From the NCBI GenBank assembly GCA_902580945.1, contig CACHML010000006.1:16943-80942 (forward strand): DNA of 64,000 nt, given 5' to 3'. Below the pieces are notes generated by a model, which was not told the origin of the DNA, did not search any database, and worked only from the letters and a program-made list of their open reading frames with translations. Both the position numbers and the translations under genes were made by a program. Source of the DNA: an uncultured Pelagibacteraceae bacterium (GTDB lineage Bacteria; Pseudomonadota; Alphaproteobacteria; Pelagibacterales; Pelagibacteraceae). Positions 42,195 through 62,669 of this stretch are shown piece by piece (within the stretch, counting starts at the first letter, position 1; each line of letters starts with the position of its first letter).

Positions 42195-43205
42195 TCAATA
42201 AATTAGTTTTTCAAACTTTTTCGACTTTATAGATTTCATTGCTCCCTCTGCCAATATAATTGATTTTCTTCCATCTTCAAAAACTGCTCTAGGTTTAATA
42301 TTTTTTCTAGAAAATTTTACTAGATCGAATAATTGAAGTTTAAAAGCCTCGGAATATCTCTCAATAAAGAAGTGAAGAAGAGGTGATTTACTGTTTGTTG
42401 AGCTTTTTGAAAAATAATTTATTTCATCGTTTCTTTTATTCTCTGAAACTAGCATTCCTTTATTCCCAAATAATTCTACTCTTTGATCATATCCAAAGCT
42501 ACAATGTCTTGAATTTGTTATAATACATTGCACCCCTTTTTTAGATTTGAGTATTGTAGTTGCCAATTCATAATCATTAATTTTATTAAAACGTTTATCC
42601 GATAAGTTACTGCCCATAGCAAAAATTGATTGGAATTCGTCTTTTCCTAAATAATATCTTGCAAGATCAAAATCGTGAATCATCATATCTTTAAATATCC
42701 CACCTGAACTTTTTAGATATTTAAGCGAAGGAGGAGAGGGATCCCGGCTAGTAATTATAATTTTTTCTAATCGTCCGATTTTTTGTTTTAGATGTCGTTT
42801 TAATGAATGGTGTCCAATGTCATATCTCCTATTGAAACCTATTTGCACTCTTGGTTTAAATTTTTTTATCCTTTTTAGACAAGAATTAATTTTTTTTATA
42901 TTCAGATCTAATGGTTTTTCACAAAAAATAATTTTATTTTGTTTTACACCTTGCTCAATAAATTTTAAATGCGTAGGTGTGCTTGACGCAATAAATATAC
43001 AGTCAATGTCTTTATCATTGAAAGCTAGATCAGGCTTATTTATTGAAGTGACATTATATTTATTAGATATTTTTTTTAATAAATCTTTGTTTAGGTCAAA
43101 GACATATTTTAATTTAAAGTCACTATTTTCGATTAAATTTTTTGCATGCATTTGGCCAATTCTGCCAAGACCAAGCAAAGCAACTTTTATTTTATTTTTG
43201 TCCAC
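42195..43205 (-). CDS. iolG: inositol 2-dehydrogenase-like Gfo/Idh/MocA oxidoreductase
   Basis: LGLGRIGQMH Rossmann motif. FCEKPL and VQIGFNRRYD blocks match the recalled B. subtilis IolG (FCEKPL, VQVGFMRRYD). Confidence 0.75.
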   Translation of the reverse strand: MDKNKIKVALLGLGRIGQMHAKNLIENSDFKLKYVFDLNKDLLKKISNKYNVTSINKPDLAFNDKDIDCIFIASSTPTHLKFIEQGVKQNKIIFCEKPLDLNIKKINSCLKRIKKFKPRVQIGFNRRYDIGHHSLKRHLKQKIGRLEKIIITSRDPSPPSLKYLKSSGGIFKDMMIHDFDLARYYLGKDEFQSIFAMGSNLSDKRFNKINDYELATTILKSKKGVQCIITNSRHCSFGYDQRVELFGNKGMLVSENKRNDEINYFSKSSTNSKSPLLHFFIERYSEAFKLQLFDLVKFSRKNIKPRAVFEDGRKSIILAEGAMKSIKSKKFEKLIY

Positions 43206-44332
43206 GCTTTTCTTTTATTTGAAATTTTACACGCTTCAATAAACTTTGCAGTTTCCAGCCCTTCATATTCATTTGGAAAAAACCACCTTTTTTTAGCTTT
43301 TGTTCTTAATGATTCTGCAAATTCTTTGTAAATGTTTGCAAAAGCATCTAGATAACCCTCTGGATGTCCAAATTTAATTCTTGAAAATTTTTTTGATAAT
43401 TCTGCATTAAAAAAACCTCTTTCTAAAAATTTTACAGCACCTTTTAATGGATTAAATTTAAGATAACCTGGATCATTTTGAACCCATTCTATGCTGCCTT
43501 TTGTGCCAAAAATCCTAAATCTTAAACCATAAACACCGCCTCTTGCCATAACACTTGTCCAAAGTAAGCCTTTTGCATTGTTATTAAAGTTGATCATTAC
43601 TTGAGCATTGTTATCCATTTTAACAGTTTTTGAAACTTGTTTGATATCAGCAAATACATTTCTACCTTTTAATCCAGAAACATAACATGCTATGTGATAA
43701 GCGTGAGATCCAATCTCATTTAAAACCGCTGAGGTTCCAACTATTTTTTTATTTATTTTCCATTTTAATATTTTTTTTGCATTTTTTTTGTTAACTATTT
43801 TTCCATCAGTCCAGTCTTGAACATACTCTACATTAACATATTCAACTTTTCCTATCTTCCCTTTTTCAACTAATACCTTTGCCTCTCTAACCATCGGATA
43901 TGCTGAATAATTATGAGTTAAAGCATACTTTATATTTTTATTTGATTTAATTTTTTTAAAAAGTTTTTTTGCTTGTGATAGATCACCTGTAAATGGCTTG
44001 TCAGATATTATATGAATATTTTTGTCTATAAATTTTTCTGCAATAACTTGGTGACTTGAAGGAGGAGTCATAATCGCCACGACCTCAATACCATCAAATC
44101 TTAGTGCCTCTTTATCAGCCATCTCTTGATAATTTGAGTAACATCTGTCTTTATCAATTCCTATTTTTTTGCCGAAAGTCTTTGAAATATTTGAATTTCT
44201 TGAAAAAACTCCTGAGACAATTTCATATTCGTCATCAAATCTTGAGGAAATTCTATGGACATGTCCTATCCATGATTTTGGACCACCGCCAACAATGCCT
44301 AATTTAATTTTTTTGCCTTTAATTAATCTCAT
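43187..44332 (-). CDS. Gfo/Idh/MocA-family oxidoreductase
   Basis: Start reassigned to the ATG at 44332 (MRLIKGKKIKLGIVGGG...). The longer tracked ORF would overlap iolE and encodes no recognisable sequence. SDKPF motif. Confidence 0.75.
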   Translation of the reverse strand: MRLIKGKKIKLGIVGGGPKSWIGHVHRISSRFDDEYEIVSGVFSRNSNISKTFGKKIGIDKDRCYSNYQEMADKEALRFDGIEVVAIMTPPSSHQVIAEKFIDKNIHIISDKPFTGDLSQAKKLFKKIKSNKNIKYALTHNYSAYPMVREAKVLVEKGKIGKVEYVNVEYVQDWTDGKIVNKKNAKKILKWKINKKIVGTSAVLNEIGSHAYHIACYVSGLKGRNVFADIKQVSKTVKMDNNAQVMINFNNNAKGLLWTSVMARGGVYGLRFRIFGTKGSIEWVQNDPGYLKFNPLKGAVKFLERGFFNAELSKKFSRIKFGHPEGYLDAFANIYKEFAESLRTKAKKRWFFPNEYEGLETAKFIEACKISNKRKAWTKIK

Positions 44333-44361
44333 GATCAAATATCTTAGCAAATATAAAAAAT

Positions 44362-45264
44362 ATGTCAGTAAAATTAGGGATAGCACCAATAGCGTGGAGC
44401 AATGATGACATGCCTGAACTAGGTGGAGACACTCCTCTTGAACAATGTTTATCAGAGGCAAGTCAGGCTGGATATATAGGTATAGAGTCAGGTGGAAAAT
44501 TTCCAAAAACATCCATGGAATTATTACCAAAACTAGAAAAGTATAATTTAAAATTATGTTCTGGATGGTACAGCGGGAATCTTAGAAAAAATTCTGTTGA
44601 AGAAGAAAAAAAATTAATTCAAAACCAGCTTCAATTATTTAAAGACTGTGAGGCTCCATGTATTGTATTTGCTGAAGTCTTTGAGTCAATACAAGGCGAT
44701 CCAAAAAAAAAACTATCTAGTAGACCAAAAATGTCCAATGATGAATGGAAAGATTATTGTGTAAAAATATCTGAACTTGCAAAATATCTTGAAGATGAGG
44801 GTATGCCATTAGCTTACCACCATCACATGGGTACAGTAATAGAAACGGAGGAAGAAACTATTAGATTGCTAGAAAATACAAGTGACAGCGTAAAATTAAC
44901 TTTAGATACTGGTCATATGCTATTTGCTCGAGGAAATTCTATTAATATAATCAATAAATTTAAAGAAAGAGTAATCCATATTCACTGCAAAGATATTAGA
45001 GAAGAAGTATTAAAAAAAGCGCTATCTGAAGATTTAAGTTTTAGAGATGCTTTTTTAGAAGGTGCTTTTACTGTGCCAGGCGATGGGTGTATCGACTATA
45101 AACCTCTGTTTGATATTTTGAAAAAAAATAATTACCAGGGTTGGTTGGTAGTGGAGGCTGAGCAAGATCCAAAAAAAGCAAATCCTCTTGAGTATGCAAT
45201 TATGGGTTATAAATATATTACAGATACTTTAAAGAAATCAAATTTAGAGATTGATAAACTATAA
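44362..45264 (+). CDS. iolE: 2-keto-myo-inositol (inosose) dehydratase
   Basis: GIAPIAWSNDDMPELG, YHHHMGT, TVPGDGCIDYKP and VVEAEQDPKKANPLEYA all match blocks of the recalled B. subtilis IolE. Confidence 0.9.
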   Translation: MSVKLGIAPIAWSNDDMPELGGDTPLEQCLSEASQAGYIGIESGGKFPKTSMELLPKLEKYNLKLCSGWYSGNLRKNSVEEEKKLIQNQLQLFKDCEAPCIVFAEVFESIQGDPKKKLSSRPKMSNDEWKDYCVKISELAKYLEDEGMPLAYHHHMGTVIETEEETIRLLENTSDSVKLTLDTGHMLFARGNSINIINKFKERVIHIHCKDIREEVLKKALSEDLSFRDAFLEGAFTVPGDGCIDYKPLFDILKKNNYQGWLVVEAEQDPKKANPLEYAIMGYKYITDTLKKSNLEIDKL

Positions 45265-46215
45265 TTTTACTTTTTTACTATCTTCAAGTTTGCCATCAAA
45301 AAAATCAAAAATATTTTGTATAGTTTCTATTGCCATTCTAGTCATGCACTCTTCAGTAAACGCTGCTGCATGAGGGCTAAGGAAAACTTTTTCATTTTTT
45401 AATAATGGATTGTCAGCTTCTGGAGGCTCTACTTCAAATACATCGATACCTGCTCCAAAAATTAGGTTCTCCTTTAATGCTCTATCTAAGTCTTTCTCAT
45501 TTATAATTCCACCTCTTGCAGCATTTATGATGATGCAATTTTTTTTCATAGTTTTAAGAAGTTCATAATTTATGATATTTTTAGTTTGATCAGTTAAAGG
45601 TATATGGAGTGACACAGCATCCATATCTTTTATTGTTTCTGATAAATCCTCAACTTTTTTTCCACCCATTTTGCTTATTGTTTCTGCATCTACAAATGGA
45701 TCATAAACAAAAACATTCATTTCAAATCCTAAACATCTTTTAATCAATGCTTTTCCAATTCTTCCAAAACCAGCTATAAGAATATTTTTGTTCCAAATCT
45801 CTATTGTTTTTGGAAGCTTATTTCTCTCAGTAAATTTTCCACTTCTGACTGATTGATCATACATACTTTTTCTTTTTGATATACTTAAAAGCATGAAAAG
45901 AACATGTTCTGCAACTGCTACAGCGTTTGCTGTTGCAGTTATCGCCACATCGATATTTCTTTTTTTACAGCTATTTAAATCAATATTGTCGTAACCAACT
46001 CCATGTCTAGAAATTATTTTAAGTTTTTTTGCATTTTCAATTGCTTCTGCAGGCAAAATTGATGTTCTTAAAGACACTGCATCAGCATCTATAATTTTTT
46101 GTTTAACGTTTTCAACGCTTAAATCCTCAACTACCTCGTAAGTATAGTTACTATTACTTTTTAATAATTCCATACCTTTTTCATGAATAGGTTGGACAAT
46201 GAGAATTTTTTTCAT
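45259..46215 (-). CDS. D-isomer-specific 2-hydroxyacid dehydrogenase (PGDH-like)
   Basis: GFGRIGKAL NAD motif, NAARGG, DVFEVEPP and SPHAAA catalytic-His region. Confidence 0.8.
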   Translation of the reverse strand: MKKILIVQPIHEKGMELLKSNSNYTYEVVEDLSVENVKQKIIDADAVSLRTSILPAEAIENAKKLKIISRHGVGYDNIDLNSCKKRNIDVAITATANAVAVAEHVLFMLLSISKRKSMYDQSVRSGKFTERNKLPKTIEIWNKNILIAGFGRIGKALIKRCLGFEMNVFVYDPFVDAETISKMGGKKVEDLSETIKDMDAVSLHIPLTDQTKNIINYELLKTMKKNCIIINAARGGIINEKDLDRALKENLIFGAGIDVFEVEPPEADNPLLKNEKVFLSPHAAAFTEECMTRMAIETIQNIFDFFDGKLEDSKKVKL

Positions 46216-46230
46216 AATTTAAAAATGAAA

Positions 46231-47220
46231 TTATATTAATCTAGCAAGATCTCTTTTACTATTTTTAAATGTTGGAAGTGGATATTTAAATGCATATTTT
46301 CTTGGTATACATTTATTTTTAGCTTTCTCCCATAAAGAGATCCATTGCTTATAATTATGAATAGTAATATTTTTTTTATTTCTACTTCTCACGTAAAAAT
46401 TTGGTAGAGGTTTTCTACCTGATGGAGTTCCAGCTCTGTTATATCTTAAGTCAGCGCTTATTCTAAAATCGTTAGATCTATTAGGTAAAGAACAATGTAT
46501 AGAGTGTTTGTGTAAAATAATTATATCACCCACATTTGCTTCCAGAAAAATTGGCTTAAATTTATCAAGTAATTTACTACCTTTTATCTCGACCTGACCT
46601 TTATATCCAGACACATGATTTAATAAACCCAGTTTGTTTATTTCTTTAACGGTAATCATGCATCCGTTATTTTTGGTAGTTTTTGTAAATGGTATCCAAA
46701 CGGTCACCATATCTGTCAATCTTTGTCCAACAGATGATAATACTGCTGCGTCTTGGTGCCAAGGAGTTCTACCTGAAAGTCCATCATGAACAGAGTGTCT
46801 AGGCAGTTTACTTTCTGGTTGTTTAATTCTTGTATTCTGAACAGGATTAGAAAGAATCTCAGATCCTATTAATTGTTCTACAACATCTAAAATTTTTTTA
46901 TGGTTTATTAAGTTCCATAAAGATTGTGATGCAAAGTAATCACTATCTTTTTTTACATTATCTCTAGGTAGTCTGGTATTAAAATGTTGGTCAAGATCAT
47001 AAATATTTAATTTTGATATATAGGTATATTTTCTTTTAAAATCATATTTAAAAACTTTTTCTCTCATATGTCTGGGTGCAAACTTATTAACTAGATTGTC
47101 CATTACATATTCCATATCGTTTAAGATAGGCTTTAAATCTTTGTTGAAATTAAGAATATTTTTTACCCTAAGGTATCCATCTCTATCTAAAATTTTCTTT
47201 AATTTGGTACTAACTTGCAT
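46231..47220 (-). CDS. PhyH-family Fe(II)/2-oxoglutarate dioxygenase
   Basis: DGYLRVKN start, WHQD (HxD facial-triad part), distal HKHSIHCSLPNRS segment. Confidence 0.7.
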   Translation of the reverse strand: MQVSTKLKKILDRDGYLRVKNILNFNKDLKPILNDMEYVMDNLVNKFAPRHMREKVFKYDFKRKYTYISKLNIYDLDQHFNTRLPRDNVKKDSDYFASQSLWNLINHKKILDVVEQLIGSEILSNPVQNTRIKQPESKLPRHSVHDGLSGRTPWHQDAAVLSSVGQRLTDMVTVWIPFTKTTKNNGCMITVKEINKLGLLNHVSGYKGQVEIKGSKLLDKFKPIFLEANVGDIIILHKHSIHCSLPNRSNDFRISADLRYNRAGTPSGRKPLPNFYVRSRNKKNITIHNYKQWISLWEKAKNKCIPRKYAFKYPLPTFKNSKRDLARLI

Positions 47221-48085
47221 GTATACAAGATTTTAGCAGATAATTTGAATCATGAAAAGATGTAAGCATTCTTTTTTTCGTCGCAACTATATGTGGGTGA
47301 TATTCAAAATTTTTATATTTCCATATAACAGGTTTATTAAATGCATAACTTCCATAAATAAAAAATCTTTTTGGACAGTTTTTTTCCTTAAATCGTGTTA
47401 CCCCATGATAAGAATTAGGAGTAGATTTAAAGAAAATTACGCTTCCCTTTTTTGGTGTAAACTCCACTAATTTATCAAGTTCATTAATTTTGGGAAATCT
47501 TCTAAAACTTTTTCTAAGGTTTCTGTTAGCTTTTTTTTTGTATAGAGTAAGAGACCCTCCATTTTTTTTTGGTATATCAGTTAAATATATCAAAAAATTA
47601 TATATTCTATTGATATCATCTCTATGCGGTCTCAATCTATACCCTCCTTTAGATACTGAAAAATCAATATCTAGATTTAAATTCGGGTTTTTATAATTTT
47701 TACCTAGCAATCTTTTTAGCTCTTTAGAATTTACTTTTCTTTTTAATGTATATTTTTTTTTATTAAATATTTTTGGTTTAAACAAACTTTCCCATGTATT
47801 TGCCTTAAACTCTGTTTTAAATTTATTATCAATTTTCTTATAAAATGATTCTGTATTGAAAGTAGCAAAAAGTTTTTTTGAGATTTTAGAAGTTGAGATA
47901 TATTTGTTGAAATTTTTTGACCCTTTGTTAATCCTACTTCTGCCACCCATAATCATATCATCGAAATTTTTTGAATTACTTATTTCTTTAATTAACGAAT
48001 TGCAGACTTTTTTACTGATTATTTGTTCTCCAACAATGACCGGGAAGTTTGATTTAATTTTCTTTAGTTTGTTAATTTTCAGCAT
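47210..48085 (-). CDS. 2OG-Fe(II) oxygenase-superfamily protein (prolyl-hydroxylase-like fold)
   Basis: RPHRDD (HxD), FLIYL...GGSLTLY, P-x-x-GSVIFF and distal NSYHGV pattern. Confidence 0.55.
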   Translation of the reverse strand: MLKINKLKKIKSNFPVIVGEQIISKKVCNSLIKEISNSKNFDDMIMGGRSRINKGSKNFNKYISTSKISKKLFATFNTESFYKKIDNKFKTEFKANTWESLFKPKIFNKKKYTLKRKVNSKELKRLLGKNYKNPNLNLDIDFSVSKGGYRLRPHRDDINRIYNFLIYLTDIPKKNGGSLTLYKKKANRNLRKSFRRFPKINELDKLVEFTPKKGSVIFFKSTPNSYHGVTRFKEKNCPKRFFIYGSYAFNKPVIWKYKNFEYHPHIVATKKRMLTSFHDSNYLLKSCIHAS

Positions 48086-49030
48086 TTAGCTGTACATACC
48101 CTCTTTTACTTTAATCATTTTGTACATAAGATCATTTAAAGGTGTGGCTATTCCATGTTTTTTTCCTATTTTAGATACAGCTCCACTTATGAAATCAATT
48201 TCAGTTTTTCTTTTGTAAAGTACATCAAAAGCCATTGAGGACTTGTTTGTTTGTTTTGAATCAACAATTTTATTAAACATAAATAAACACTCATCTTCAG
48301 AAACATTAACGCCATCTGCTAAAGCAACTTTTCTTGTTTCTAAAATAATCTCTTTACCTAAACTTCTAGATACGTCATTGGCATTATTATTTATGTAAAG
48401 ATCAGTATGATGTAGATCAAAAATAGCTGAAAGTGGACCAATTGCGGTTAAAGCAAAAAGTTTCATCCATTTTCTTTTTTTTACATCCTCAGCTGCAATC
48501 ATTTCTAAATTATGCGCTGTAAATGTGTCTGCAATTTCTGTTATTCTATCTGTTATTCCACCATCATATTCTCCAATCCAAGAAGGTAAAGCTGCATGAT
48601 TCATAATATGACCAGGGCCTAAGATATTTGATGCTTGAGTTGTTGTTCCTCCAATTACTTTTTCATCGCCAACAATACTTTTAATTATAGCTTCATGTCC
48701 AATTCCATTTTGAAAAGACATAAAAACTGTTTTATCTCTAATAATGTTTTTAATACTTTTTAAAGCTGGTTCTAGAGCTGTTGCTTTACACATTACTATT
48801 ACAGCATCAACTTTTCCAATTGTAGATGGATCTGATGTTGCAGGTATTCTTATAAATCTATCACCACCATGGCCATCCATTTTTAGACCATTTTTATTAA
48901 TTTCTTCAACATGCTCTTTCCAAACATCAATGAGCGTTACATTAAGACCTTTTTCTGCTAGAAGACCTCCAAATAGACAACCCATTGCTCCTGCACCAAG
49001 AACTGCAACTTTTAAATCTTTATTATTCAT
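48086..49030 (-). CDS. 2-dehydropantoate 2-reductase (KPR/ApbA) family oxidoreductase
   Basis: VLGAGAMGCLFG Rossmann motif, FQNG, KWMKL lysine region, SSMAFDVLYKRKTEID C-terminal motif. Confidence 0.8.
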   Translation of the reverse strand: MNNKDLKVAVLGAGAMGCLFGGLLAEKGLNVTLIDVWKEHVEEINKNGLKMDGHGGDRFIRIPATSDPSTIGKVDAVIVMCKATALEPALKSIKNIIRDKTVFMSFQNGIGHEAIIKSIVGDEKVIGGTTTQASNILGPGHIMNHAALPSWIGEYDGGITDRITEIADTFTAHNLEMIAAEDVKKRKWMKLFALTAIGPLSAIFDLHHTDLYINNNANDVSRSLGKEIILETRKVALADGVNVSEDECLFMFNKIVDSKQTNKSSMAFDVLYKRKTEIDFISGAVSKIGKKHGIATPLNDLMYKMIKVKEGMYS

Positions 49031-49093
49031 ATTTAAAATCGAAATATATTTATGTAAAAAAATTATGCAATATATTATGTAACTAATTAATAT

Positions 49094-50062
49094 ATGAAAT
49101 TAAAAATAGAAAAAGGAATTTTCAAAAAATTTGAGTTAAAAGAAATATCAAACGCATTAGAAAAAGGTCTGTCAAAGAATTATGACAGTGTGAAAGCAGA
49201 AGTAATTGATTGCCCAAATTTAAGAAATTGGGATTGTCCGTCTGAAGGTATGAGTGGTAACCAAAGGATAATCGATGTTGGAGGAGAGCCCTACATGCAC
49301 GATCCTAAATATCTTGGAACTGAATTTGATTATGCTGAAATCTCAAAAATGATTGGATCAGAAAAATCATATGCACTTGGAGCAGGATCTGGAGCAATGT
49401 CTTGCCTCGATGGACACTGTGGAGAACTAGTTATAAATGAAAACTTAATAACAAAAGAAAATAAGTCTTTAATTGCCAGGGTAGGGAAAGATAAAGAATG
49501 TATAGTAGAGGACTATACTGCAAGCAAACATGGTGGGCTTGGTAACATTTATTATTCAGATGGTGTTAAAGGAAAAGTTATTTATTTAAACATAAAAAAA
49601 AGAACTGGAAATCAAGGTTCATTACCTCAATCAATTAGAACAGCACTTTCTGAAAATCTTAAAATTGGGTATAAAAATCATATTGCTCTTGCTGGTGTAT
49701 TTAGAGTTTTGAATGGAAAAATAAGATCACACGTACAACCAGATTATAAGGATATAAAACATGAATATTATGATCCACAATTGATGAAATGCACAAAAGA
49801 TTTTCTACAATTTTATGAGCCTGTTGGACCAAAATTACAATGCTATACTGTTTTATGGACTGGTGATCCAACGGGAGGAGAATTAAATTTAAGAGAGTCT
49901 GGAGAGCATACTCACTTCCACTCATATGAGCATAAAAATGACGCTGGACATTATCATTTTGACGTATCACCTGATGAAATTGAATATGAGGGATACTTTA
50001 ATATTGCACAAGAAGTACATAGAGTGAATAATATCTATAAAGAATTAAAAAATATAAAATGA
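49094..50062 (+). CDS. DUF1907 protein (homolog of eukaryotic C11orf54-type Zn enzyme)
   Basis: VIDCPNL, DVGGEPY, LGAGSGA, KKRTG and the His cluster EHTHFHS...GHYHFD..PDEIEYEGYF align with my recollection of human C11orf54. Confidence 0.7.
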   Translation: MKLKIEKGIFKKFELKEISNALEKGLSKNYDSVKAEVIDCPNLRNWDCPSEGMSGNQRIIDVGGEPYMHDPKYLGTEFDYAEISKMIGSEKSYALGAGSGAMSCLDGHCGELVINENLITKENKSLIARVGKDKECIVEDYTASKHGGLGNIYYSDGVKGKVIYLNIKKRTGNQGSLPQSIRTALSENLKIGYKNHIALAGVFRVLNGKIRSHVQPDYKDIKHEYYDPQLMKCTKDFLQFYEPVGPKLQCYTVLWTGDPTGGELNLRESGEHTHFHSYEHKNDAGHYHFDVSPDEIEYEGYFNIAQEVHRVNNIYKELKNIK

Positions 50063-50874
50063 AAAAGATTTATACTTGGGCTGCTCAACCTGCCAACAGA
50101 TCTCTCACAGTTGATGATCTAAAAAAGGCAAAAGGAAAAAAAAAATTTACTCAAGTCACAGCCAATACACTAGATGAAGCTGAGGCCGCAGAGATAGCTG
50201 GATTTGATATGATAATCTGCAATGCTTTTAATGTAAAACAGGTGAGAGAGGGATCAAAGAATCTATTTTTAACTGCTGCACTAGTATTAAATAAGTTTGT
50301 CACTTCAGATGATATAATGAGAGGAGCGTTTGAAGCCTTAGAAAATGGAGCTGACGCTGTAATGACTCCTAGAAGCATGAAAATAGTAGAGATGTTGGCT
50401 AATGAAGATGTTCCGGTTATGGGGCATCTTGGTTTAGTTCCAAGAAAATCTACGTGGATTGGTGGATTAAGAGCAGTAGGAAAAAATAGTGAGGAGGCAC
50501 ACAACCTTTTTTTAAAATTTAAAAGATTGGAAAATGCGGGAGCCTTTTCTGCTGAATGTGAGGTTATACCAGAAAATGTTATGGGAGAAATCTCTAAAAG
50601 AACAAATATAGTTACAGTTTCTTTAGGTTCAGGAAAAAAAGCAGATGTAATGTATTTGTTCATGGAAGACATATGTGGAGATACTTTAAACCCTCCAAGA
50701 CATTCAAAAGCTTATGGGAATTTATTAAAATTAAAAAATGAAATAAAAATTGAGAGAATTCGAGCTCTCAAGGCATTTAAAAAAGATTCTATGGCTGGAA
50801 AATTTCCAGGAAAAAAACAGTCTTCAAATTTAAATAAAAAAGAGTTTGAGTCCTTTCTTGATAAACTAGATTAA
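50059..50874 (+). CDS. PanB-like (ketopantoate hydroxymethyltransferase fold) protein with non-canonical active-site residues
   Basis: MGHLGLVPRK and ECEVIPE match PanB blocks CGHLGLTPQS and LECVPVE. The VGDSLGM block reads ICNAFNV and the region before GHLGL is ~27 aa shorter. ATGA overlap with DUF1907. Confidence 0.65.
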   Translation: MKKIYTWAAQPANRSLTVDDLKKAKGKKKFTQVTANTLDEAEAAEIAGFDMIICNAFNVKQVREGSKNLFLTAALVLNKFVTSDDIMRGAFEALENGADAVMTPRSMKIVEMLANEDVPVMGHLGLVPRKSTWIGGLRAVGKNSEEAHNLFLKFKRLENAGAFSAECEVIPENVMGEISKRTNIVTVSLGSGKKADVMYLFMEDICGDTLNPPRHSKAYGNLLKLKNEIKIERIRALKAFKKDSMAGKFPGKKQSSNLNKKEFESFLDKLD

Positions 50875-51662
50875 TAAGTTTCAGATTCTTTTTTATTTAT
50901 TGAACCCTTCATTTTTTCTACAATCGCTTTAGCACCAGCGCTCATTGCTCTTTGATCAGCTCCTATAGTCACAAAATTAAAACCTTTATCAATCATTTTT
51001 TGAGCATACTCAGTTGTTCCATTATGTATTCCTGCAAAGATATTATGTTTTTTAGCATGCTCTAATATTCTTAATATTTCAGAATATGCTTTTGTGTCCT
51101 CTGCTCTGTCAAAGCCAGGCTTTTCTCCAATCGCTAAACTTAAGTCAGCTGGACCAATATATATCCCATCCACACCGTCAGTAGACATAATCTCATCTAG
51201 TTTATCTAATGACTCCTTCGTTTCAATCATAGCTAACTTTAAAATTTCATCATTTGCATGATCAGCATAATCAGGACCACCATAAATTAATCCTCTGACT
51301 GGGCCAAAACTTCTATATCCTCTTGGAGGATACATGCATGCTTGTACAAATCTTTCTGCCTCTTCTTTATTGCTTACCATAGGGCAAATTATTCCATAAC
51401 AACCAGCGTCTAAAATTTTCATTATTTGTCCTGGTTCATTCCAATTTACTCTTGCAAGAGGCGTTACATCAGTTGAAGAAATTGTTTGAAGCATTGGAAG
51501 TGCGTTTGTGTAATCAACAAGTCCATGTTGCATATCAACAGTCAGGGAGTCCCAACCTTGATGCGCCATAACTTCTGCAGATACTGTGCTAGGTATTTGT
51601 AACCAGCCATTAACAACTGGCTTTCCTTCAGCCATCATTTGTTTTACTTTATTTTTTCTCAT
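50871..51662 (-). CDS. HpcH/HpaI-family class II 2-keto-3-deoxy-acid aldolase
   Basis: ~260 aa TIM-barrel pattern with DMQHG, MIET/E and GPADLS motifs characteristic of HpaI/GarL/YfaU. Confidence 0.85.
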   Translation of the reverse strand: MRKNKVKQMMAEGKPVVNGWLQIPSTVSAEVMAHQGWDSLTVDMQHGLVDYTNALPMLQTISSTDVTPLARVNWNEPGQIMKILDAGCYGIICPMVSNKEEAERFVQACMYPPRGYRSFGPVRGLIYGGPDYADHANDEILKLAMIETKESLDKLDEIMSTDGVDGIYIGPADLSLAIGEKPGFDRAEDTKAYSEILRILEHAKKHNIFAGIHNGTTEYAQKMIDKGFNFVTIGADQRAMSAGAKAIVEKMKGSINKKESETY

Positions 51663-53104
51663 TAATAATTAAGACCAAAATGAGTATATTTAATATTTAA
51701 ATAATCCTTGATAGCCATTGATCCACCCTCTCTGCCATAACCTGTCTGTTTGATACCTCCAAAAGGAACTTCTGCAAACGCAATAGTAGGATGATTTACT
51801 GCACATGTTCCAGTTTCCATTTTTTCTGAGACTTTGTGAGCTTTTTCTAAAGAATTTGTATAAATATAGCTTGCCAAACCTAAGTCATTGTCGTTAGCTC
51901 TTTTAACAACTTCATCTGTATCTTTAAACGTAAGTAGTGGAACTAATGGTCCAAAAGGTTCTTCTTTTGCAATTGTAAAGTTATCTTGAACATTGTCAAA
52001 AATAGTAGGTTCATAAAAATATCCTTTATTAAAACCTGATGGTCTCTTTCCACCACATAAAACAGTTGCTCCTTCTTTTTTTGTTTTCTCGACTAATGCT
52101 TCTATTTCATTCAATCTCTTTTCTGTGGTTAATGGACCTAATATTGTGTCGTCATCCATTCCATTTCCAATTTTAAGTTTAGAAACTTTTTCAACTAATG
52201 TTTTTGCAAACTCATCTTTTTTCTTTTCATGTATATAAAATCTTGCTGGTGATATACAAACCTGGCCGTTATTTCTAAATTTTGCTGTTATTGCCATATC
52301 TGTAACTTTATTTATATCTACATCATCAAAAACTATAAAAGGTGAGTGACCACTTAATTCCATAGTAACTCTTTGCACTTTTTCAGCGGCTTGCTTTAAA
52401 ATAAGTTTACCAACTCTAGTCGATCCAGTAATAGAAACTTTTTTTACTATGTCAGAAGATATTAATTGTGATGAAATTTGTGCTGGATCACCTGATAATA
52501 AATTAACAACACCAGGAGGAACTCCTGCATCATTTATAATATTCATTAGTTCCATTACACTTCCCGGAGTAATAACATCTGGCTTACATATAACTGAGCA
52601 CCCAGCTGCTAAGGCAGTTGAAATTTTTCTAGAAGATAAAACTATTGGAAAATTCCATGGTATTAATCCTGCAACAACACCAACAGGCTCGTATTTTACA
52701 TACATTCGTGTGTGTTCAAATCTGCTCTCTACTATCTGGCCATATATTCTTTTTGTTTCTTCAGAATTCCATTCAAAAATATCTGCTGCTCCTCCTACTT
52801 CTCCTTTTGCTTCTGACAAAGGTTTTCCAACTTCTAATGTAAGCCATTTTGCTAGTACATCAGTTCTCTCTCTCATAAGATCTGCAATATTTCTTATAAT
52901 TTTTGATCTTTGCCAAGGTGGAGTATTTCTCCAAACTTCAAGACCTTTTTCAGCTGACTTAAGAGCTTTATTTACATCTTCTTCTCCAGCTTTTGATGCT
53001 TTGCCAATTACTTCTTCAGTTGCCGGATTTAACACATCGTAAGTTTCATTATTTTGAGATGGTTGCCATTTACCATCAATGAATTGTCCAAATTTGCTAT
53101 ACAT
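51662..53104 (-). CDS. NAD(P)-dependent aldehyde dehydrogenase
   Basis: WNFP, ELSGHSP (catalytic Glu region), GQVCISP (catalytic Cys), EEPFGP. Its stop overlaps the aldolase start by 1 nt. Confidence 0.9.
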   Translation of the reverse strand: MYSKFGQFIDGKWQPSQNNETYDVLNPATEEVIGKASKAGEEDVNKALKSAEKGLEVWRNTPPWQRSKIIRNIADLMRERTDVLAKWLTLEVGKPLSEAKGEVGGAADIFEWNSEETKRIYGQIVESRFEHTRMYVKYEPVGVVAGLIPWNFPIVLSSRKISTALAAGCSVICKPDVITPGSVMELMNIINDAGVPPGVVNLLSGDPAQISSQLISSDIVKKVSITGSTRVGKLILKQAAEKVQRVTMELSGHSPFIVFDDVDINKVTDMAITAKFRNNGQVCISPARFYIHEKKKDEFAKTLVEKVSKLKIGNGMDDDTILGPLTTEKRLNEIEALVEKTKKEGATVLCGGKRPSGFNKGYFYEPTIFDNVQDNFTIAKEEPFGPLVPLLTFKDTDEVVKRANDNDLGLASYIYTNSLEKAHKVSEKMETGTCAVNHPTIAFAEVPFGGIKQTGYGREGGSMAIKDYLNIKYTHFGLNY

Positions 53105-57225: not shown

Positions 57226-57976
57226 ATGTCATCTGCCAATCAATTATTATTAGAAGCCAAAAATGTTACAAAATACTTTGGCACAATTACTGCTCTTGAA
57301 AACGTAAACCTTAAAATTCATGCAGGTGAATGCTTAGGAGTTGTAGGAGACAATGGAGCAGGAAAAACAACATTAATGAAGGTTTTATCTGGCCTATATA
57401 AACCAAGTGCAGGCTCTTTACATTTTGAAGGAAAAGAAAAAGTTTTAGAAAGTCCCAGAGATTCTCAAAACTTAGGTTTAGAAATGGTTTATCAAGATTT
57501 AGCTTTAGCAGGCAATCTTCCAATAGGCGAAAATATTTTTTTAGGCCGTGAACCAACTACTAATTTGGGATTATTAAAGTTTCTTGATTATAAAAAAATA
57601 AAAGAACTTACAGAAGCACATCTAGGCAAACTTAAAATAAATGTAAAGAGTGCAGATCAAAAAGTCGAGGAACTTTCAGGTGGACAAAGACAAGCAGTTG
57701 CAATTGCAAGATCAACAGCATTCAATGCAAAAGTAGTGATTATGGACGAACCAACAGCAGCATTAGCTATTAAAGAAGTTGGTAAGGTTTTGGATTTAAT
57801 AAATAGTCTGAAAAAAAACTGGCGTAGGCGTAATTGTGATCAGTCATAGAATGGATGATATTTTTGCAGTTTGTGACCGAGTAATGGCATTGTTTCAAGG
57901 AACGAATTTTGCAGAATCTGAATTATCAAACACTTCAAGAGATGAAGTTATTGGATGGATAATGGGTAAAAAATAA
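57226..57976 (+). pseudogene. sugar ABC transporter ATP-binding protein (single NBD), reading frame broken by one extra base in an A8 run at 57811-57818
   Basis: Frame A carries Walker A GDNGAGKTT, LSGGQRQ and Walker B VVIMDEPT, then stops at 57849. The +1 frame from 57821 reads GVGVIVISHRMDDIFAVCDRV... (H-loop) to a TAA at 57974-57976. An A7 run would give LKKTGVGVIVISHR. Confidence 0.8.
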
Positions 57977-62647: not shown

Positions 62648-62669
62648 TTTTTTTTTATATTTTGCAATT

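What the first reader, a model, noticed from the sequence alone, without database searches (positions are those of the whole stretch)
45259..50874. Tightly packed divergent six-gene module of unknown pathway embedded between iolE and iolD
The leftward unit (49030 to 45259) holds a KPR-like reductase, a 2OG-Fe(II) oxygenase, a PhyH dioxygenase and a D-2-hydroxyacid dehydrogenase. Its junctions are a 0-nt gap, an 11-nt overlap and a 15-nt gap. The rightward unit starts 63 nt away and couples DUF1907 to the PanB-like protein through an ATGA overlap. The module thus combines two Fe/2OG dioxygenases, two reductases, a putative Zn-dependent decarboxylase/hydrolase and a degenerate aldol-type enzyme. 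I know of no described pathway with this set. One speculative possibility is oxidative demethylation or hydroxylation of substituted cyclitols or hydroxy-acids that feeds the iol enzymes. Another speculative possibility is a pantoate-like branched hydroxy-acid route.
Basis: inference. Interest (0 to 1): 0.65.

Follow-up and report, generated by a model that had tools for sequence, protein, structure and literature searches.

The report
SAR11 sugar-acid decarboxylation genes in inositol cluster
The six genes are real and are conserved in the marine SAR11 bacteria, but the stable core is a dehydrogenase paired with a zinc decarboxylase whose human relative makes L-xylulose during inositol breakdown, so this is probably an undescribed side branch of sugar-acid or inositol catabolism rather than a fixed six-gene pathway.

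Summary
All six ORFs, their junctions and their family assignments are confirmed. The window comes from a Pelagibacteraceae (SAR11) genome.

- **Packing:** tight spacing is the norm here (94% coding, median same-strand gap -1 nt), so it says nothing about co-function.
- **Conservation:** across 80 Pelagibacteraceae species loci the stable block is PhyH-ApbA | DUF1907 ... HpcH aldolase-ALDH | iolD. The PanB-like gene (57/70), the first 2-hydroxyacid dehydrogenase (46/66), the second 2OG oxygenase (61/66) and iolE (46/65) come and go. All six genes occur together in 29/59.
- **DUF1907:** it is no longer an unknown family. Human C11orf54 is the Zn-dependent beta-keto-L-gulonate decarboxylase (PNAS 2025), and its zinc histidines and essential His/Arg are kept here.
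- **ApbA partner:** the ApbA-like gene is fused to DUF1907 in several unrelated proteins. It is adjacent to DUF1907 in 4 of 6 non-SAR11 bacterial loci, once beside a canonical iolE-D-C-B cluster.
- **Best reading:** an NAD-dependent hydroxy-acid dehydrogenase and a beta-keto-acid decarboxylase act in sequence on a sugar acid linked to the iol enzymes, and Fe/2OG hydroxylases tailor the substrate.
- **PanB-like protein:** it lacks PanB's metal and lysine residues, so a pantoate route is unlikely.

The substrate is not identified.

The parts
42195..43205 (-). iolG-like inositol 2-dehydrogenase (left edge of the sugar island)
   Evidence: TIGR04380 345 bits, against a cut-off of 355. An orthologue is present in most SAR11 loci that reach this far.
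43187..44332 (-). GFO/IDH/MocA oxidoreductase. The real start is probably the Met at about 44332, not the 447-aa ORF listed.
   Evidence: Pfam GFO_IDH_MocA domains begin at residue 75 of the long ORF. The orthologue in L004 is 377 aa. Translation.
44362..45264 (+). iolE, myo-inosose-2 dehydratase
   Evidence: TIGR04379 412 bits, above the 290 cut-off. Present at this position in 46 of 65 SAR11 loci.
45259..46215 (-). D-2-hydroxyacid dehydrogenase (PGDH / glyoxylate-hydroxypyruvate reductase-like); last gene of the leftward operon; variable
   Evidence: Pfam 2-Hacid_dh and 2-Hacid_dh_C. Best PDB matches are 1wwk, McyI and glyoxylate reductases. An orthologue is present in 46 of 66 loci and is replaced or absent in the others.
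46231..47220 (-). PhyH-family Fe(II)/2-oxoglutarate dioxygenase; invariant member of the block
   Evidence: PF05721 62 bits. The WHQD...H...R motif is visible in the translation. Present in 66 of 66 loci. Only distant PDB relatives were found: PtlH and PhyH.
47210..48085 (-). 2OG-FeII_Oxy_3 dioxygenase (OG3); accessory
   Evidence: PF13640 44.5 bits. The PHRDD...YHGV...R motif is in the translation. Present in 61 of 66 loci and cleanly deleted in L047, L052, L054, L055 and L056.
48086..49030 (-). ApbA/KPR-family dehydrogenase, probably NAD-dependent; proposed partner of DUF1907; first gene of the leftward operon
   Evidence: - Pfam ApbA and ApbA_C match; TIGR00745 (subfamily level) passes, and every equivalog-level PanE model is below its cut-off.
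- It is 51% and 39% identical to the ApbA halves of the DUF1907-ApbA fusion proteins P0125 and P0135.
- It is 41-43% identical to the ApbA genes next to DUF1907 in L007, L090, L095 and L096.
- It shares the LID-W-EHV motif with the chain of PDB entry 3wfi.
- Present in 66 of 66 loci.
49031..49093 (.). 63-nt A+T-rich divergent intergenic region between ApbA and DUF1907
   Evidence: Sequence. The promoter scan is no better than shuffled sequence, so promoters are inferred from the geometry only.
49094..50062 (+). DUF1907 protein, predicted Zn-dependent beta-keto-acid decarboxylase of the C11orf54/BKGD family
   Evidence: - PF08925 197.7 bits, full length.
- PDB 1xcr E = 1.5e-35.
- H272, H274 and H286 are invariant, and H213 and R267 nearly invariant, across 30 diverse family members. 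They align with human H266/H268/H278, H217 and R263. The last two are essential in the human enzyme (PMC12337341).
50059..50874 (+). PanB-fold protein of unknown activity (not ketopantoate hydroxymethyltransferase); accessory
   Evidence: - PF02548 119 bits, but it matches only profile positions 67-258. panB TIGR00222 scores 95.7 against a cut-off of 207.55.
- Aligned with E. coli PanB, ADLPF becomes TAALV and VKIEGG becomes VMTPRS.
- The AF2 model has pLDDT 88.6 and its closest fold is PanB, TM 0.66-0.70.
- The family is widespread and 56-62% identical to this copy.
- Present in 57 of 70 SAR11 loci. Also found 2.7 kb from DUF1907 in L096.
50871..51662 (-). HpcH/HpaI class II 4-hydroxy-2-oxoacid aldolase; near-constant neighbour
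   Evidence: PF03328. The best PDB match is the hydroxyketoacid aldolase 6r62 family, 206 bits. Present in 69 of 70 loci.
51662..53104 (-). NAD(P)-dependent aldehyde dehydrogenase, like succinate- or ketoglutarate-semialdehyde dehydrogenases; near-constant neighbour
   Evidence: PF00171 552 bits. Best PDB matches are 3jz4 (SSADH) and 5x5t (KGSADH). Present in 66 of 67 loci.
53160..55004 (+). iolD, 3D-(3,5/4)-trihydroxycyclohexane-1,2-dione acylhydrolase
   Evidence: TIGR04377 785 bits, above the 715 cut-off. Present in 60 of 61 loci.
55014..56171 (+). second GFO/IDH/MocA oxidoreductase, co-oriented with iolD
   Evidence: An orthologue is present in nearly all loci that reach it.

Best explanation
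The locus is a conserved catabolic gene block of Pelagibacteraceae, not a fixed six-gene operon pair.

**Working core (family-level chemistry established; the substrate here is inferred)**
- The ApbA/KPR-like enzyme oxidises a polyhydroxy-acid (an aldonate-type sugar acid) with NAD+ to a 2-hydroxy-3-oxo acid.
- The DUF1907 zinc enzyme then decarboxylates that acid to a ketose or ketol plus CO2. Because this step is irreversible, it pulls the unfavourable dehydrogenase equilibrium forward.
- These are the same two steps as L-gulonate 3-dehydrogenase (CRYL1) plus beta-keto-L-gulonate decarboxylase (C11orf54) in the animal glucuronate-xylulose pathway, which is the main route of myo-inositol catabolism in animals. 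Here an ApbA-fold dehydrogenase stands in for CRYL1.

**Role in SAR11 (inferred)**
- The pair is wired into the inositol cluster (iolG, iolE, iolD, two extra GFO dehydrogenases).
- It works together with the near-constant HpcH-type aldolase and the semialdehyde dehydrogenase next to iolD. These are expected to split a 4-hydroxy-2-oxo acid into (hydroxy)pyruvate and a carboxy-aldehyde, and then oxidise that aldehyde.
- Together they would give a non-phosphorylating way to finish breaking down the acid produced by IolD, or a related sugar acid.
- The always-present PhyH-type Fe/2OG oxygenase and the dispensable second oxygenase are proposed to hydroxylate a CH2 or C-H position. An example is the carbon next to the carboxylate of a deoxy-acid such as 5-deoxyglucuronate or its reduced form. 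This would create the 2-hydroxy group that the decarboxylase family uses to bind substrate.
- The 2-hydroxyacid dehydrogenase and the PanB-fold protein are accessory.
For: **Shown**
- DUF1907 family membership. The three zinc histidines are kept, as are the two residues (human H217 and R263) whose mutation abolishes activity in the human enzyme.
- Fusion evidence. DUF1907-ApbA fusion proteins occur in four separate 50%-identity clusters (P0125, P0135, P0142, P0156). Their ApbA halves are 39-51% identical to the window's ApbA protein. A 3HCDH-DUF1907 fusion (P0149) has the architecture that PMC12337341 used to link the decarboxylase with L-gulonate 3-dehydrogenase.
- Adjacency outside SAR11. 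ApbA and DUF1907 are adjacent or overlapping in 4 of 6 non-SAR11 bacterial loci with 42-60% GC: L007, L090, L095 and L096.
- Conservation within SAR11. ApbA and PhyH are present in 66 of 66 SAR11 loci.
- Sugar-acid and inositol context recurs elsewhere:
  - L090 has iolE-iolD-iolC-iolB, an RpiR regulator, a TRAP transporter, then DUF1907-ApbA.
  - L093 has a GFO dehydrogenase.
  - L094 has DUF1907 abutting (1-nt overlap) an aldonate-dehydratase-like enolase-superfamily gene.
  - L095 has an Ldh_2 gene.
  - L096 and L090 have TRAP (carboxylate) transporters.
- HpcH, ALDH and iolD are near-constant neighbours: 69/70, 66/67 and 60/61. HpcH is closest to hydroxyketoacid aldolases and ALDH to semialdehyde dehydrogenases.
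- No iolB or iolC homologue was found in the 64-kb window, and the PfkB gene is a ribokinase.
- The ApbA protein has Asp after the second beta-strand (LIDVW), as does the chain of PDB entry 3wfi. From my own knowledge, 3wfi is the NAD-dependent KPR-family D-mandelate dehydrogenase of Enterococcus. This fits a catabolic NAD+ enzyme.
- The human study showed that the dehydrogenase equilibrium lies towards the hydroxy-acid and is pulled by the decarboxylase. That explains the selection for fusion or tight linkage.
Against: - No substrate is identified, and no enzyme of this locus has been assayed.
- From my own knowledge, characterised KPR-family enzymes act at C2 of 2-oxo/2-hydroxy acids, not at C3. 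The dehydrogenase might therefore reduce a 2,3-dioxo acid, or oxidise C2 of a dicarboxylate.
- The C-terminal Asp that contributes to catalysis in the human enzyme is not conserved here.
- No gene for onward metabolism of a pentulose (reductase, kinase, epimerase) is evident in the conserved block.
- Re-hydroxylating a position that IolE has just dehydrated would be wasteful.
- The two oxygenases are absent from every non-SAR11 DUF1907 context examined, so their link to the pair rests on SAR11 synteny alone. SAR11 genomes pack unrelated genes tightly.
- Absence of iolB, iolC and iolJ was checked only in this window, not in a whole genome.
- L094 and L093 carry DUF1907 without ApbA nearby.
Confidence: 0.5

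Rival explanations
1. Ascorbate or 2,3-diketogulonate breakdown. The KPR-like enzyme does what KPR enzymes normally do, which is to reduce a 2-keto group. It acts on 2,3-diketo-L-gulonate (the hydrolysis product of dehydroascorbate) and gives 3-keto-L-gulonate. DUF1907 then decarboxylates that to L-xylulose. This is the E. coli YiaK reaction followed by a non-phosphorylated decarboxylation. The Fe/2OG enzymes act on ascorbate-related compounds, and the nearness to iol genes reflects a shared sugar island.
For: - The catalytic motifs of the KPR family are kept in the ApbA protein (QNG, K, SSM..D, TEID).
- TRAP transporters stand next to the pair in L090 and L096. From my own knowledge, E. coli imports 2,3-diketogulonate by a TRAP system.
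- An Ldh_2-family gene, the family of YiaK, lies near the pair in L095.
- The DUF1907 residues that contact the C2 and C4 oxygens of beta-keto-L-gulonate are conserved.
Against: - The LID motif suggests NAD+, which fits oxidation rather than a reductase role.
- The Ldh_2 protein of L095 scores only 79.8 bits against the 3-dehydro-L-gulonate 2-dehydrogenase model (cut-off 316) and scores higher against other models.
- No L-xylulose-processing genes are in the block.
- This reading gives no role to iolD, HpcH or ALDH, which are the most constant neighbours.
Confidence: 0.12
2. Removal of a carbon substituent from substituted cyclitols. The Fe/2OG oxygenases oxidise a C- or O-methyl group of an algal methyl-inositol stepwise. 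Dehydrogenases take it to a carboxylate and place a ketone next to it. DUF1907 removes the carboxyl as CO2, as thymine 7-hydroxylase plus isoorotate decarboxylase do for thymine. The resulting inosose enters IolE/IolD. The PanB-fold protein might release a hydroxymethyl group as formaldehyde.
For: - Two Fe/2OG oxygenases are co-transcribed with a dehydrogenase and stand beside a decarboxylase whose structural relative, acetolactate decarboxylase, acts on a tertiary 2-hydroxy-3-oxo acid.
- The block is constantly near iolD and the GFO dehydrogenases.
- A PanB fold is associated with hydroxymethyl transfer.
- The rest is inference from chemistry.
Against: - There is no direct evidence.
- Outside SAR11 the ApbA-DUF1907 pair occurs with carboxylate transporters and without oxygenases. 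The pair therefore acts on an imported acid, not on an oxygenase product.
- The PanB-like protein lacks the PanB metal ligands, is dispensable, and usually stands alone in other bacteria.
- H213 and R267 match a linear 3-keto-aldonate binding mode.
Confidence: 0.1
3. There is no single pathway. The six genes are neighbours because SAR11 genomes are compact and this region is a variable sugar island. The ApbA-DUF1907 pair, the oxygenases, the 2-HADH, the PanB-like gene, the HpcH-ALDH pair and the iol genes serve two or more unrelated routes.
For: - Tight junctions are the genome norm.
- PanB-like, OG3, 2-HADH, iolE and the 137-aa protein all vary between loci.
- The central cassette is exchanged by recombination independently of its flanks.
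- The PanB-like family is solitary elsewhere.
- A ribose operon and acid-sugar genes follow in the same island.
Against: - PhyH-ApbA | DUF1907 ... HpcH-ALDH | iolD stays together in essentially all of 60-70 species-level loci, although the flanks change.
- The pair is next to iol genes in an unrelated 60% GC bacterium.
- The PanB-like gene recurs near the pair in L096.
Confidence: 0.2
4. Pantoate-like branched hydroxy-acid synthesis. The PanB-like protein makes a ketopantoate-like acid and the ApbA/KPR-like enzyme reduces it (panB plus panE).
For: Pfam and NCBI subfamily models name the two proteins Pantoate_transf and 2-dehydropantoate 2-reductase. Public annotations call the PanB-like family 3-methyl-2-oxobutanoate hydroxymethyltransferase.
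Against: - The PanB-like protein scores far below the panB equivalog cut-off (95.7 against 207.55).
- It has Ala, Met and Pro at the positions of E. coli D84, K112 and E114 (residue roles from my own knowledge of the 1M3U structure). These changes are fixed across the family.
- It is absent from 13 of 70 SAR11 loci that keep ApbA.
- ApbA's constant partner, and its fusion partner, is DUF1907, not PanB.
- The NAD-type motif does not fit an NADPH-dependent biosynthetic KPR.
Confidence: 0.04

Closest known systems
Animal glucuronate-xylulose (pentose) pathway steps: L-gulonate 3-dehydrogenase (CRYL1) plus beta-keto-L-gulonate decarboxylase (C11orf54/BKGD, EC 4.1.1.34), PMC12337341
   Same: DUF1907 fold family with the zinc histidines and the essential His and Arg conserved. 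An NAD-type dehydrogenase with a Rossmann domain plus a helical domain is genetically coupled to the decarboxylase, by fusion or adjacency. In animals this pathway handles inositol-derived glucuronate; here the genes sit in an inositol cluster.
   Different: The dehydrogenase partner is of the ApbA/KPR family, not 3HCDH/CRYL1. The match to the human protein is distant (E = 1.5e-35). The C-terminal Asp is not conserved. No MIOX, glucuronate reductase or xylulose reductase is in the conserved block. The substrate is unknown. Two Fe/2OG oxygenases are added.
[quoted passage not shown]
   Same: The same zinc site with three histidines and a related fold, as reported in PMC12337341. Both decarboxylate a 2-hydroxy-3-oxo acid.
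   Different: It is a different Pfam family. The His and Arg that set BKGD apart from ALDC are present in the SAR11 protein, so the SAR11 protein groups with BKGD rather than ALDC.
Canonical bacterial myo-inositol pathway (IolG, IolE, IolD, IolB, IolC, IolJ, IolA)
   Same: iolE and iolD pass NCBI equivalog cut-offs, and iolG misses its cut-off by 10 bits. The gene neighbourhood is an inositol cluster.
   Different: No iolB, iolC, iolJ or iolA is in the window. Eight other genes lie between iolE and iolD. The lower half of the route may be replaced by non-phosphorylating enzymes (an inference).
E. coli yiaK-S / ula route (YiaK 2,3-diketo-L-gulonate reductase, LyxK, SgbH/UlaD 3-keto-L-gulonate-6-phosphate decarboxylase)
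   Same: It handles 3-keto-L-gulonate and ends in an L-xylulose derivative. It is linked with a TRAP transporter, as DUF1907-ApbA is in L090 and L096.
   Different: It decarboxylates the phosphorylated acid with an OMP-decarboxylase-fold enzyme, and its reductase is of the Ldh_2 family. Neither family is in the SAR11 block.
PanB/PanE (ketopantoate hydroxymethyltransferase plus ketopantoate reductase)
   Same: The same two folds stand next to one another, and automatic annotation gives these names.
   Different: The PanB-like protein lacks the metal-binding Asp/Glu and the Lys. The reductase-like protein is tied to DUF1907 and looks NAD-dependent. Both fail the equivalog-level models.
HpaI/HpcH aldolase plus succinate-semialdehyde dehydrogenase (end of the homoprotocatechuate route), and HpcH-type aldolases of non-phosphorylating sugar-acid routes (GarL, YfaU, hydroxyketoacid aldolase)
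   Same: The HpcH-ALDH pair next to iolD has this architecture, and its closest structures are of these enzymes.
   Different: Both score below every equivalog cut-off, and the substrate is unknown.

Membership tests
DUF1907 / C11orf54 beta-keto-L-gulonate decarboxylase family (PF08925) | Full-length match to the family profile and to the solved human structure | tested here: met
   PF08925 197.7 bits against a cut-off of 25, covering profile positions 1-285. PDB 1xcr E = 1.5e-35 over residues 14-313.
DUF1907 / C11orf54 beta-keto-L-gulonate decarboxylase family (PF08925) | Three zinc-binding histidines (EHTHF...GHYH) | tested here: met
   H272, H274 and H286 are invariant in 30 diverse members and align with the human EHTHF/GHYH histidines.
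DUF1907 / C11orf54 beta-keto-L-gulonate decarboxylase family (PF08925) | His and Arg that contact the substrate C2 and C4 oxygens and are essential (human H217, R263) | tested here: met
   H213 and R267 are present here and are at least 90% conserved. Their essential role is from PMC12337341. R267 lies two positions from the HMMER-aligned column, so this pairing rests on the multiple alignment.
DUF1907 / C11orf54 beta-keto-L-gulonate decarboxylase family (PF08925) | Conserved C-terminal Asp (human D315) | tested here: not met
   The window protein ends ...YKELKNIK. Bacterial C-termini vary in length and sequence.
DUF1907 / C11orf54 beta-keto-L-gulonate decarboxylase family (PF08925) | Decarboxylation of beta-keto-L-gulonate to L-xylulose | not testable with these tools
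   This needs an enzyme assay.
Ketopantoate reductase (PanE/ApbA, EC 1.1.1.169) | Family fold and catalytic motifs | tested here: met
   Pfam ApbA and ApbA_C match. TIGR00745 (subfamily) scores 236, above its 141 cut-off. The QNG, K, SSM..D and TEID motifs align with KPR structures.
Ketopantoate reductase (PanE/ApbA, EC 1.1.1.169) | Orthology to a genuine PanE (equivalog-level model) | tested here: not met
   All NCBIfam equivalog models are below their cut-offs; the best is 170 against 500. It is closer to the ApbA partners of DUF1907 (41-51% identity).
Ketopantoate reductase (PanE/ApbA, EC 1.1.1.169) | NADPH specificity (a basic residue after strand 2) | tested here: inconclusive
   The sequence has LIDVW (an acidic residue), as does the chain of PDB entry 3wfi. 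From my own knowledge 3wfi is the NAD-dependent D-mandelate dehydrogenase. The cofactor was not measured, and the rule is also from my own knowledge.
Ketopantoate hydroxymethyltransferase (PanB, EC 2.1.2.11) | Equivalog-level profile score | tested here: not met
   TIGR00222 95.7 against a cut-off of 207.55. NF001452 104.8 against 272. The Pfam match misses the first 66 profile positions.
Ketopantoate hydroxymethyltransferase (PanB, EC 2.1.2.11) | Mg-binding Asp/Glu and substrate-binding Lys (E. coli D45, D84, K112, E114) | tested here: not met
   D84 is replaced by Ala, K112 by Met and E114 by Pro in the alignment with 1m3u. The position of D45 reads Asn when aligned by eye against the E. coli N-terminus recalled from memory (window translation; not a tool alignment). 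The same replacements are fixed in 26 family members. Residue roles are from my own knowledge.
Ketopantoate hydroxymethyltransferase (PanB, EC 2.1.2.11) | PanB-type TIM-barrel fold | tested here: met
   AF2 model pLDDT 88.6. Best Foldseek matches are 1m3u, 3vav and 1oy0, TM 0.65-0.71.
Fe(II)/2-oxoglutarate dioxygenases (PhyH; 2OG-FeII_Oxy_3) | HxD...H iron triad and a basic 2OG-binding residue | tested here: met
   Read from the translations. PhyH has WHQD, HKHSIH and RISADLR. OG3 has PHRDD, SYHGV and KRFFIYGSY. Pfam matches are above the gathering scores.
Canonical iol (myo-inositol) catabolic cluster | iolG, iolE and iolD present | tested here: met
   iolE 412 (cut-off 290) and iolD 785 (cut-off 715) pass. 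iolG scores 345 against 355, just below.
Canonical iol (myo-inositol) catabolic cluster | Lower pathway genes iolB, iolC, iolJ and iolA present | tested here: inconclusive
   tblastn with the L090 IolB and IolC finds no iolB in the window and only a weak PfkB match. That PfkB gene is a ribokinase. iolJ and iolA were not queried directly; no aldolase or ALDH annotated in the window matched them. Only 64 kb could be checked, not the genome.

The most novel reading that the evidence does not exclude
SAR11 finishes inositol breakdown by an undescribed, oxygen-dependent, non-phosphorylating route.
1. The IolD product 5-deoxyglucuronate (or its reduced or oxidised form) is re-hydroxylated next to its carboxylate by the PhyH-type Fe/2OG enzyme.
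2. It is oxidised by the ApbA-like dehydrogenase and decarboxylated by DUF1907.
3. The fragments are handled by the HpcH aldolase and the semialdehyde dehydrogenase.

This would replace IolB, IolC and IolJ in the ocean's most abundant heterotroph. It would also reveal an ApbA-DUF1907 oxidative decarboxylation module that is shared, as fusions, with marine eukaryotes.
Probability: 0.12. Interest if true: 0.8.

Novelty: new variant of a known kind. Interest (0 to 1): 0.55.

Why it matters
- SAR11 is the most abundant heterotrophic lineage in the surface ocean, and this block is present in at least several hundred of its species-level genomes (309 relatives in the genome scan; the 80 examined were all Pelagibacteraceae). 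It is also represented in seawater metatranscriptome assemblies. Knowing its substrate would add a defined compound class (inositols, uronic or aldonic acids, or ascorbate products from phytoplankton) to the short list of carbon sources known for SAR11.
- No paper in the library searched assigns a function to a bacterial DUF1907 protein. The ApbA-DUF1907 fusion and adjacency found here is a clear, cheap lead for assigning one, and for correcting the 'ketopantoate reductase' and 'PanB' labels that automatic annotation gives these genes.
- It would also show that the dehydrogenase step of the animal pentose pathway has been replaced by a non-orthologous enzyme in other lineages.

Tried and rejected
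- **First genome scan.** A 5-sequence alignment worked, but the 80 loci returned were all SAR11, so non-SAR11 contexts had to come from the look-up of encoding contigs.
- **Metagenome scan.** Patterns specific to non-SAR11 proteins gave only one locus (L093).
- **Viral scan.** The scan for the P0156 fusion found nothing, so the origin of the 25% GC contig L008 is unresolved.
- **P0136.** It could not be located.
- **Promoter and terminator scan.** There were 39 promoter-like sites against 44.7 expected, which is uninformative in this A+T-rich DNA.
- **AlphaFold on OG3 without an alignment.** It failed (pLDDT 34), so no fold search was run on it. OG3 also has no significant PDB sequence match.
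- **Read laying.** Only unstranded contigs were available, so operon structure could not be proven.
- **Literature searches.** Searches for SAR11 inositol catabolism, alternative fates of 5-deoxyglucuronate, SAR11 PhyH enzymes and bacterial PTD012 proteins found nothing relevant. The nickel-enzyme paper was irrelevant.
- **PanB-like as a decaying pseudo-enzyme: rejected.** dN/dS is 0.06, and the gene is 56-62% identical to copies in distant bacteria, with many invariant polar residues.
- **The PhyH of L094 and the 2OG oxygenase of L008 as orthologues of the SAR11 oxygenases: rejected.** BLAST finds no match at 1e-5 to 1e-6, and the L008 protein is only 24% identical to OG3.
- **The 137-aa ORF.** It is found between DUF1907 and PanB-like in other SAR11 lineages, is absent from this window and has no Pfam match. 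By eye it looks like a MarR-type regulator, but this was not tested.

Full report
**1. Observation**

| Coordinates | Strand | Pfam family | Score |
|---|---|---|---|
| 45259-46215 | - | 2-Hacid_dh and 2-Hacid_dh_C | above gathering score |
| 46231-47220 | - | PhyH | 62 bits |
| 47210-48085 | - | 2OG-FeII_Oxy_3 | 44.5 bits |
| 48086-49030 | - | ApbA and ApbA_C | above gathering score |
| 49094-50062 | + | DUF1907 | 197.7 bits, full length |
| 50059-50874 | + | Pantoate_transf | 119 bits, profile positions 67-258 only |

Both oxygenases keep the HxD...H iron triad and a basic 2OG-binding residue (translations).

- dN/dS against three related SAR11 loci is 0.04-0.2 for every gene.
- Contigs from four seawater metatranscriptomes cover the whole region, and some cross the DUF1907/PanB-like junction. 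These contigs are unstranded and DNA carry-over cannot be excluded.

**2. What chance gives**

The window has 22-34% G+C, and its DUF1907 protein is 100% identical to those of Pelagibacteraceae single-cell genomes.

- It is 94% coding, with a median same-strand gap of -1 nt.
- 28 of 39 same-strand junctions are <=15 nt.

The 0-nt gap, the 11-nt overlap and the ATGA overlap are therefore ordinary for this genome. They carry no weight for co-function.

**3. Surroundings**

- Positions 1-41 kb hold housekeeping genes: ksgA, pdxA, surA, lptD/F/G, pepA, purM, aspS, accC, thiG, RNase E/G, PBP1, prfB, suf and glnA.
- A sugar island starts at about 42 kb. Its gene order is:
  1. iolG-like (-)
  2. a GFO oxidoreductase (-)
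  3. iolE (+)
  4. the four leftward genes
  5. DUF1907 and the PanB-like gene (+)
  6. an HpcH/HpaI aldolase (50871-51662, -)
  7. an aldehyde dehydrogenase (51662-53104, -)
  8. iolD (+)
  9. a second GFO gene
  10. a second 2-HADH
  11. a ribose-type ABC system with RbsD/FucU and a ribokinase
  12. an aldonate-dehydratase-like enolase-superfamily gene and a PdxA paralogue, both on the minus strand

- Eight genes, not six, therefore lie between iolE and iolD.
- iolE and iolD pass NCBI's equivalog cut-offs.
- tblastn with the IolB and IolC of another bacterium found no iolB in the window, and only a weak match to the ribokinase for iolC.

**4. Synteny in SAR11**

The genome scan found 309 relatives of the DUF1907 protein. 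The 80 best were all Pelagibacteraceae species representatives. The table gives presence among the loci that reach each position.

| Gene | Present / loci covering the position |
|---|---|
| PhyH | 66/66 |
| ApbA | 66/66 |
| HpcH | 69/70 |
| ALDH | 66/67 |
| iolD | 60/61 |
| OG3 | 61/66 |
| PanB-like | 57/70 |
| orthologous 2-HADH | 46/66 |
| iolE | 46/65 |
| 137-aa ORF (no Pfam match) between DUF1907 and PanB-like | 30/70 |
| all six genes together | 29/59 |

- OG3 is cleanly deleted in five loci.
- The 137-aa ORF is absent from this window.
- In lineages without iolE on the left, the flank holds other sugar genes: TRAP or CUT1 transporters, GFO, a xylose-isomerase-like barrel, or a different 2-HADH.
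- The evolutionary unit is therefore PhyH-(OG3)-ApbA | DUF1907 ... HpcH-ALDH | iolD-GFO.
- L067 and L081 are ~98-99% identical to the window on both flanks, but only ~77-85% identical between about 47.5 and 50.9 kb. The central cassette is therefore exchanged by recombination.

**5. DUF1907 is no longer an unknown family**

- A 2025 paper showed that human C11orf54 is the Zn-dependent beta-keto-L-gulonate decarboxylase that forms L-xylulose (PMC12337341). It has an acetolactate-decarboxylase-like fold.
- H217 and R263 are essential in the human enzyme, and a rotifer fusion with the preceding dehydrogenase (3HCDH/CRYL1) served as supporting evidence.
- The window protein matches the human structure 1xcr at E = 1.5e-35.
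- It keeps the three histidines of the EHTHF...GHYH zinc site and the equivalents of H217 and R263 (H213, R267). These residues are invariant or nearly so in 30 diverse members.
- The C-terminal Asp of the animal enzymes is not kept.
- The family is small: 524 representatives among 1.84 billion proteins.
- No paper in the library searched assigns a function to a bacterial member. [quoted passage not shown]

**6. The partner of DUF1907**

- Among the family representatives, four separate clusters are DUF1907-ApbA fusion proteins: P0125, P0135, P0142 and P0156.
- Their ApbA halves are 51% and 39% identical to the window's ApbA-like protein. One cluster has an intron-like split and is probably eukaryotic.
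- P0149 has the 3HCDH-DUF1907 architecture described in the paper.
- In non-SAR11 bacterial loci the two genes are adjacent or overlapping in four of six cases.

| Locus | Context of DUF1907 |
|---|---|
| L007 | ApbA then DUF1907 |
| L090 | DUF1907 then ApbA |
| L095 | the two genes overlap by 8 nt |
| L096 | ApbA then DUF1907 |
| L093 | no ApbA nearby |
| L094 | no ApbA nearby |

- The ApbA partners are 41-43% identical to the SAR11 protein. No equivalog-level PanE model reaches its cut-off.
- The protein keeps the KPR catalytic motifs. It carries an acidic residue after strand 2 (LIDVW), as does the chain of PDB entry 3wfi. From my own knowledge, 3wfi is the NAD-dependent KPR-family D-mandelate dehydrogenase, and an acidic residue at this position points to NAD.
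- I conclude that ApbA-like and DUF1907 act consecutively, as dehydrogenase and then decarboxylase. This is the best-supported part of the explanation.

**7. Context of the pair elsewhere**

- L090 comes from a 3.9-Mb contig with 60% GC. The pair follows a TRAP transporter and lies directly beside iolE-iolD-iolC(PfkB+DUF2090)-iolB and an RpiR regulator.
- L096 has two LacI regulators, a TRAP system and the pair. After an insertion sequence come fragments of a beta-hydroxyacid dehydrogenase and of a xylose-isomerase-like barrel, and then a PanB-like gene that is 62% identical to the SAR11 one.
- L095 has an Ldh_2 gene and an ABC system.
- L094 has DUF1907 abutting an aldonate-dehydratase-like gene with a 1-nt overlap.
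- L093 has a GFO dehydrogenase and an Amidohydro_2 gene.
- The common theme is sugar acids and inositol. None of these loci has the two oxygenases.

**8. The PanB-like protein**

- Aligned with E. coli PanB (1m3u), it has Ala, Met and Pro at the positions of D84, K112 and E114. The roles of those residues are from my own knowledge of that structure.
- It fails the panB equivalog model, scoring 95.7 against a cut-off of 207.55.
- It is not decaying:
  - dN/dS is about 0.06.
  - Relatives 56-62% identical to it occur in many bacteria and are annotated as panB.
  - Invariant polar residues include D50, R63, D85, D99, R105, E166, E168, D196, D204 and H215.
- A confident model (pLDDT 88.6) is closest to PanB, at TM 0.66-0.70 and 20-25% identity.
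- In two other genomes it stands alone among unrelated genes, and 13 of 70 SAR11 loci lack it.
- It is a PanB-fold enzyme of unknown activity and an accessory to this block, not a hydroxymethyltransferase.

**9. Mechanism proposed**

*Shown:*
- family memberships and conserved catalytic residues;
- the fusion and adjacency of ApbA with DUF1907;
- the constancy of PhyH, HpcH, ALDH and iolD as neighbours.

*Inferred:*
- The ApbA-like enzyme oxidises a polyhydroxy-acid to a 2-hydroxy-3-oxo acid, and DUF1907 decarboxylates it.
- These are the same two steps as in the animal glucuronate-xylulose pathway, which is the animal route of inositol catabolism (PMC12337341).
- The decarboxylation pulls an unfavourable dehydrogenase equilibrium.
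- HpcH is closest to hydroxyketoacid aldolases, and ALDH is closest to succinate- and ketoglutarate-semialdehyde dehydrogenases. Together they would cleave a 4-hydroxy-2-oxo (di)acid and oxidise the resulting carboxy-aldehyde.
- The PhyH-type oxygenase would install a hydroxyl, possibly next to the carboxylate of a deoxy-acid derived from the IolD product.

*Unresolved:* which acid is the substrate, and whether the dehydrogenase acts at C3 (like CRYL1) or at C2 (like KPR).

**10. Rivals**

- Ascorbate or 2,3-diketogulonate breakdown, with the KPR-like enzyme acting as a reductase.
- Oxidative removal of a methyl or hydroxymethyl substituent from algal cyclitols, by analogy with thymine 7-hydroxylase plus isoorotate decarboxylase.
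- No single pathway: neighbours in a compact, recombining sugar island.
- Pantoate-like synthesis, which the evidence disfavours.

**11. Verdict**

The finding is real and conserved, and it is more interesting at its core (ApbA-DUF1907 in an inositol context) than as a six-gene module. Novelty is moderate. This is a new variant of sugar-acid catabolism built around a decarboxylase family characterised so far only in animals, with an unreported dehydrogenase partner and unexplained oxygenases, in a very abundant marine bacterium.

Noticed in passing
window 47500-50900, compared with L067 and L081: This is a mosaic allele. The two SAR11 loci are ~98-99% identical to the window on both flanks, but only ~77-85% identical across the 5' half of OG3, ApbA, DUF1907 and PanB-like, and they carry the extra 137-aa ORF. 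The central cassette is swapped by recombination between near-identical backbones.
   Followed up: partly
window 57226-57849 (A-run near 57810): The ABC transporter ATPase is cut to 207 aa by one extra A in a homopolymer, relative to close relatives L010, L012 and L016 (~250 aa). This is either a single-cell sequencing error or a true frameshift.
   Followed up: yes
L001:11005-11418 and the same position in 30 of 70 SAR11 loci; absent from the window: A 137-aa ORF without a Pfam match lies between DUF1907 and PanB-like or HpcH in the ~80%-identity lineages. By eye it resembles a MarR-type winged-helix regulator.
   Followed up: partly
window 50059-50874; L096:13683-14492; L097; L098: The PanB-like protein belongs to a widespread, strongly conserved family that is annotated as panB in Paracoccaceae and others but lacks PanB's metal and lysine residues. 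This is probably a systematic misannotation of an enzyme of unknown function.
   Followed up: partly
L008:4431-6347 and L009: A DUF1907-ApbA fusion gene sits on a 71-kb contig with 25% GC among glycan-modification genes (DegT aminotransferase, epimerases, sulfotransferase, a 2OG-FeII_Oxy_3 gene, an ATP-grasp gene, a large helicase). The organism is unknown, and the gene was not found in IMG/VR.
   Followed up: partly
window 61472-63668 (-): An aldonate-dehydratase-like enolase-superfamily gene and a second PdxA paralogue lie at the right end of the sugar island. The housekeeping pdxA is at 3110-4069. The pair suggests a further acid-sugar route.
   Followed up: no
L090:10001-10945: The DUF1907 gene of this 3.9-Mb contig reads as nonsense after about residue 232. 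This is probably an indel in a long-read assembly rather than a pseudogene.
   Followed up: no
L025: The gene order is rearranged (ApbA, DUF1907, then PhyH, 2-HADH, iolE, GFO and iolG on the opposite strand). This is either a chimeric single-cell assembly or a real inversion.
   Followed up: no
window 43187-44530 (-): The listed 447-aa ORF of the GFO oxidoreductase overlaps iolE by 169 nt. The domain starts at residue 75 and the orthologue is 377 aa, so the true start is probably near 44332 and there is no overlap.
   Followed up: yes
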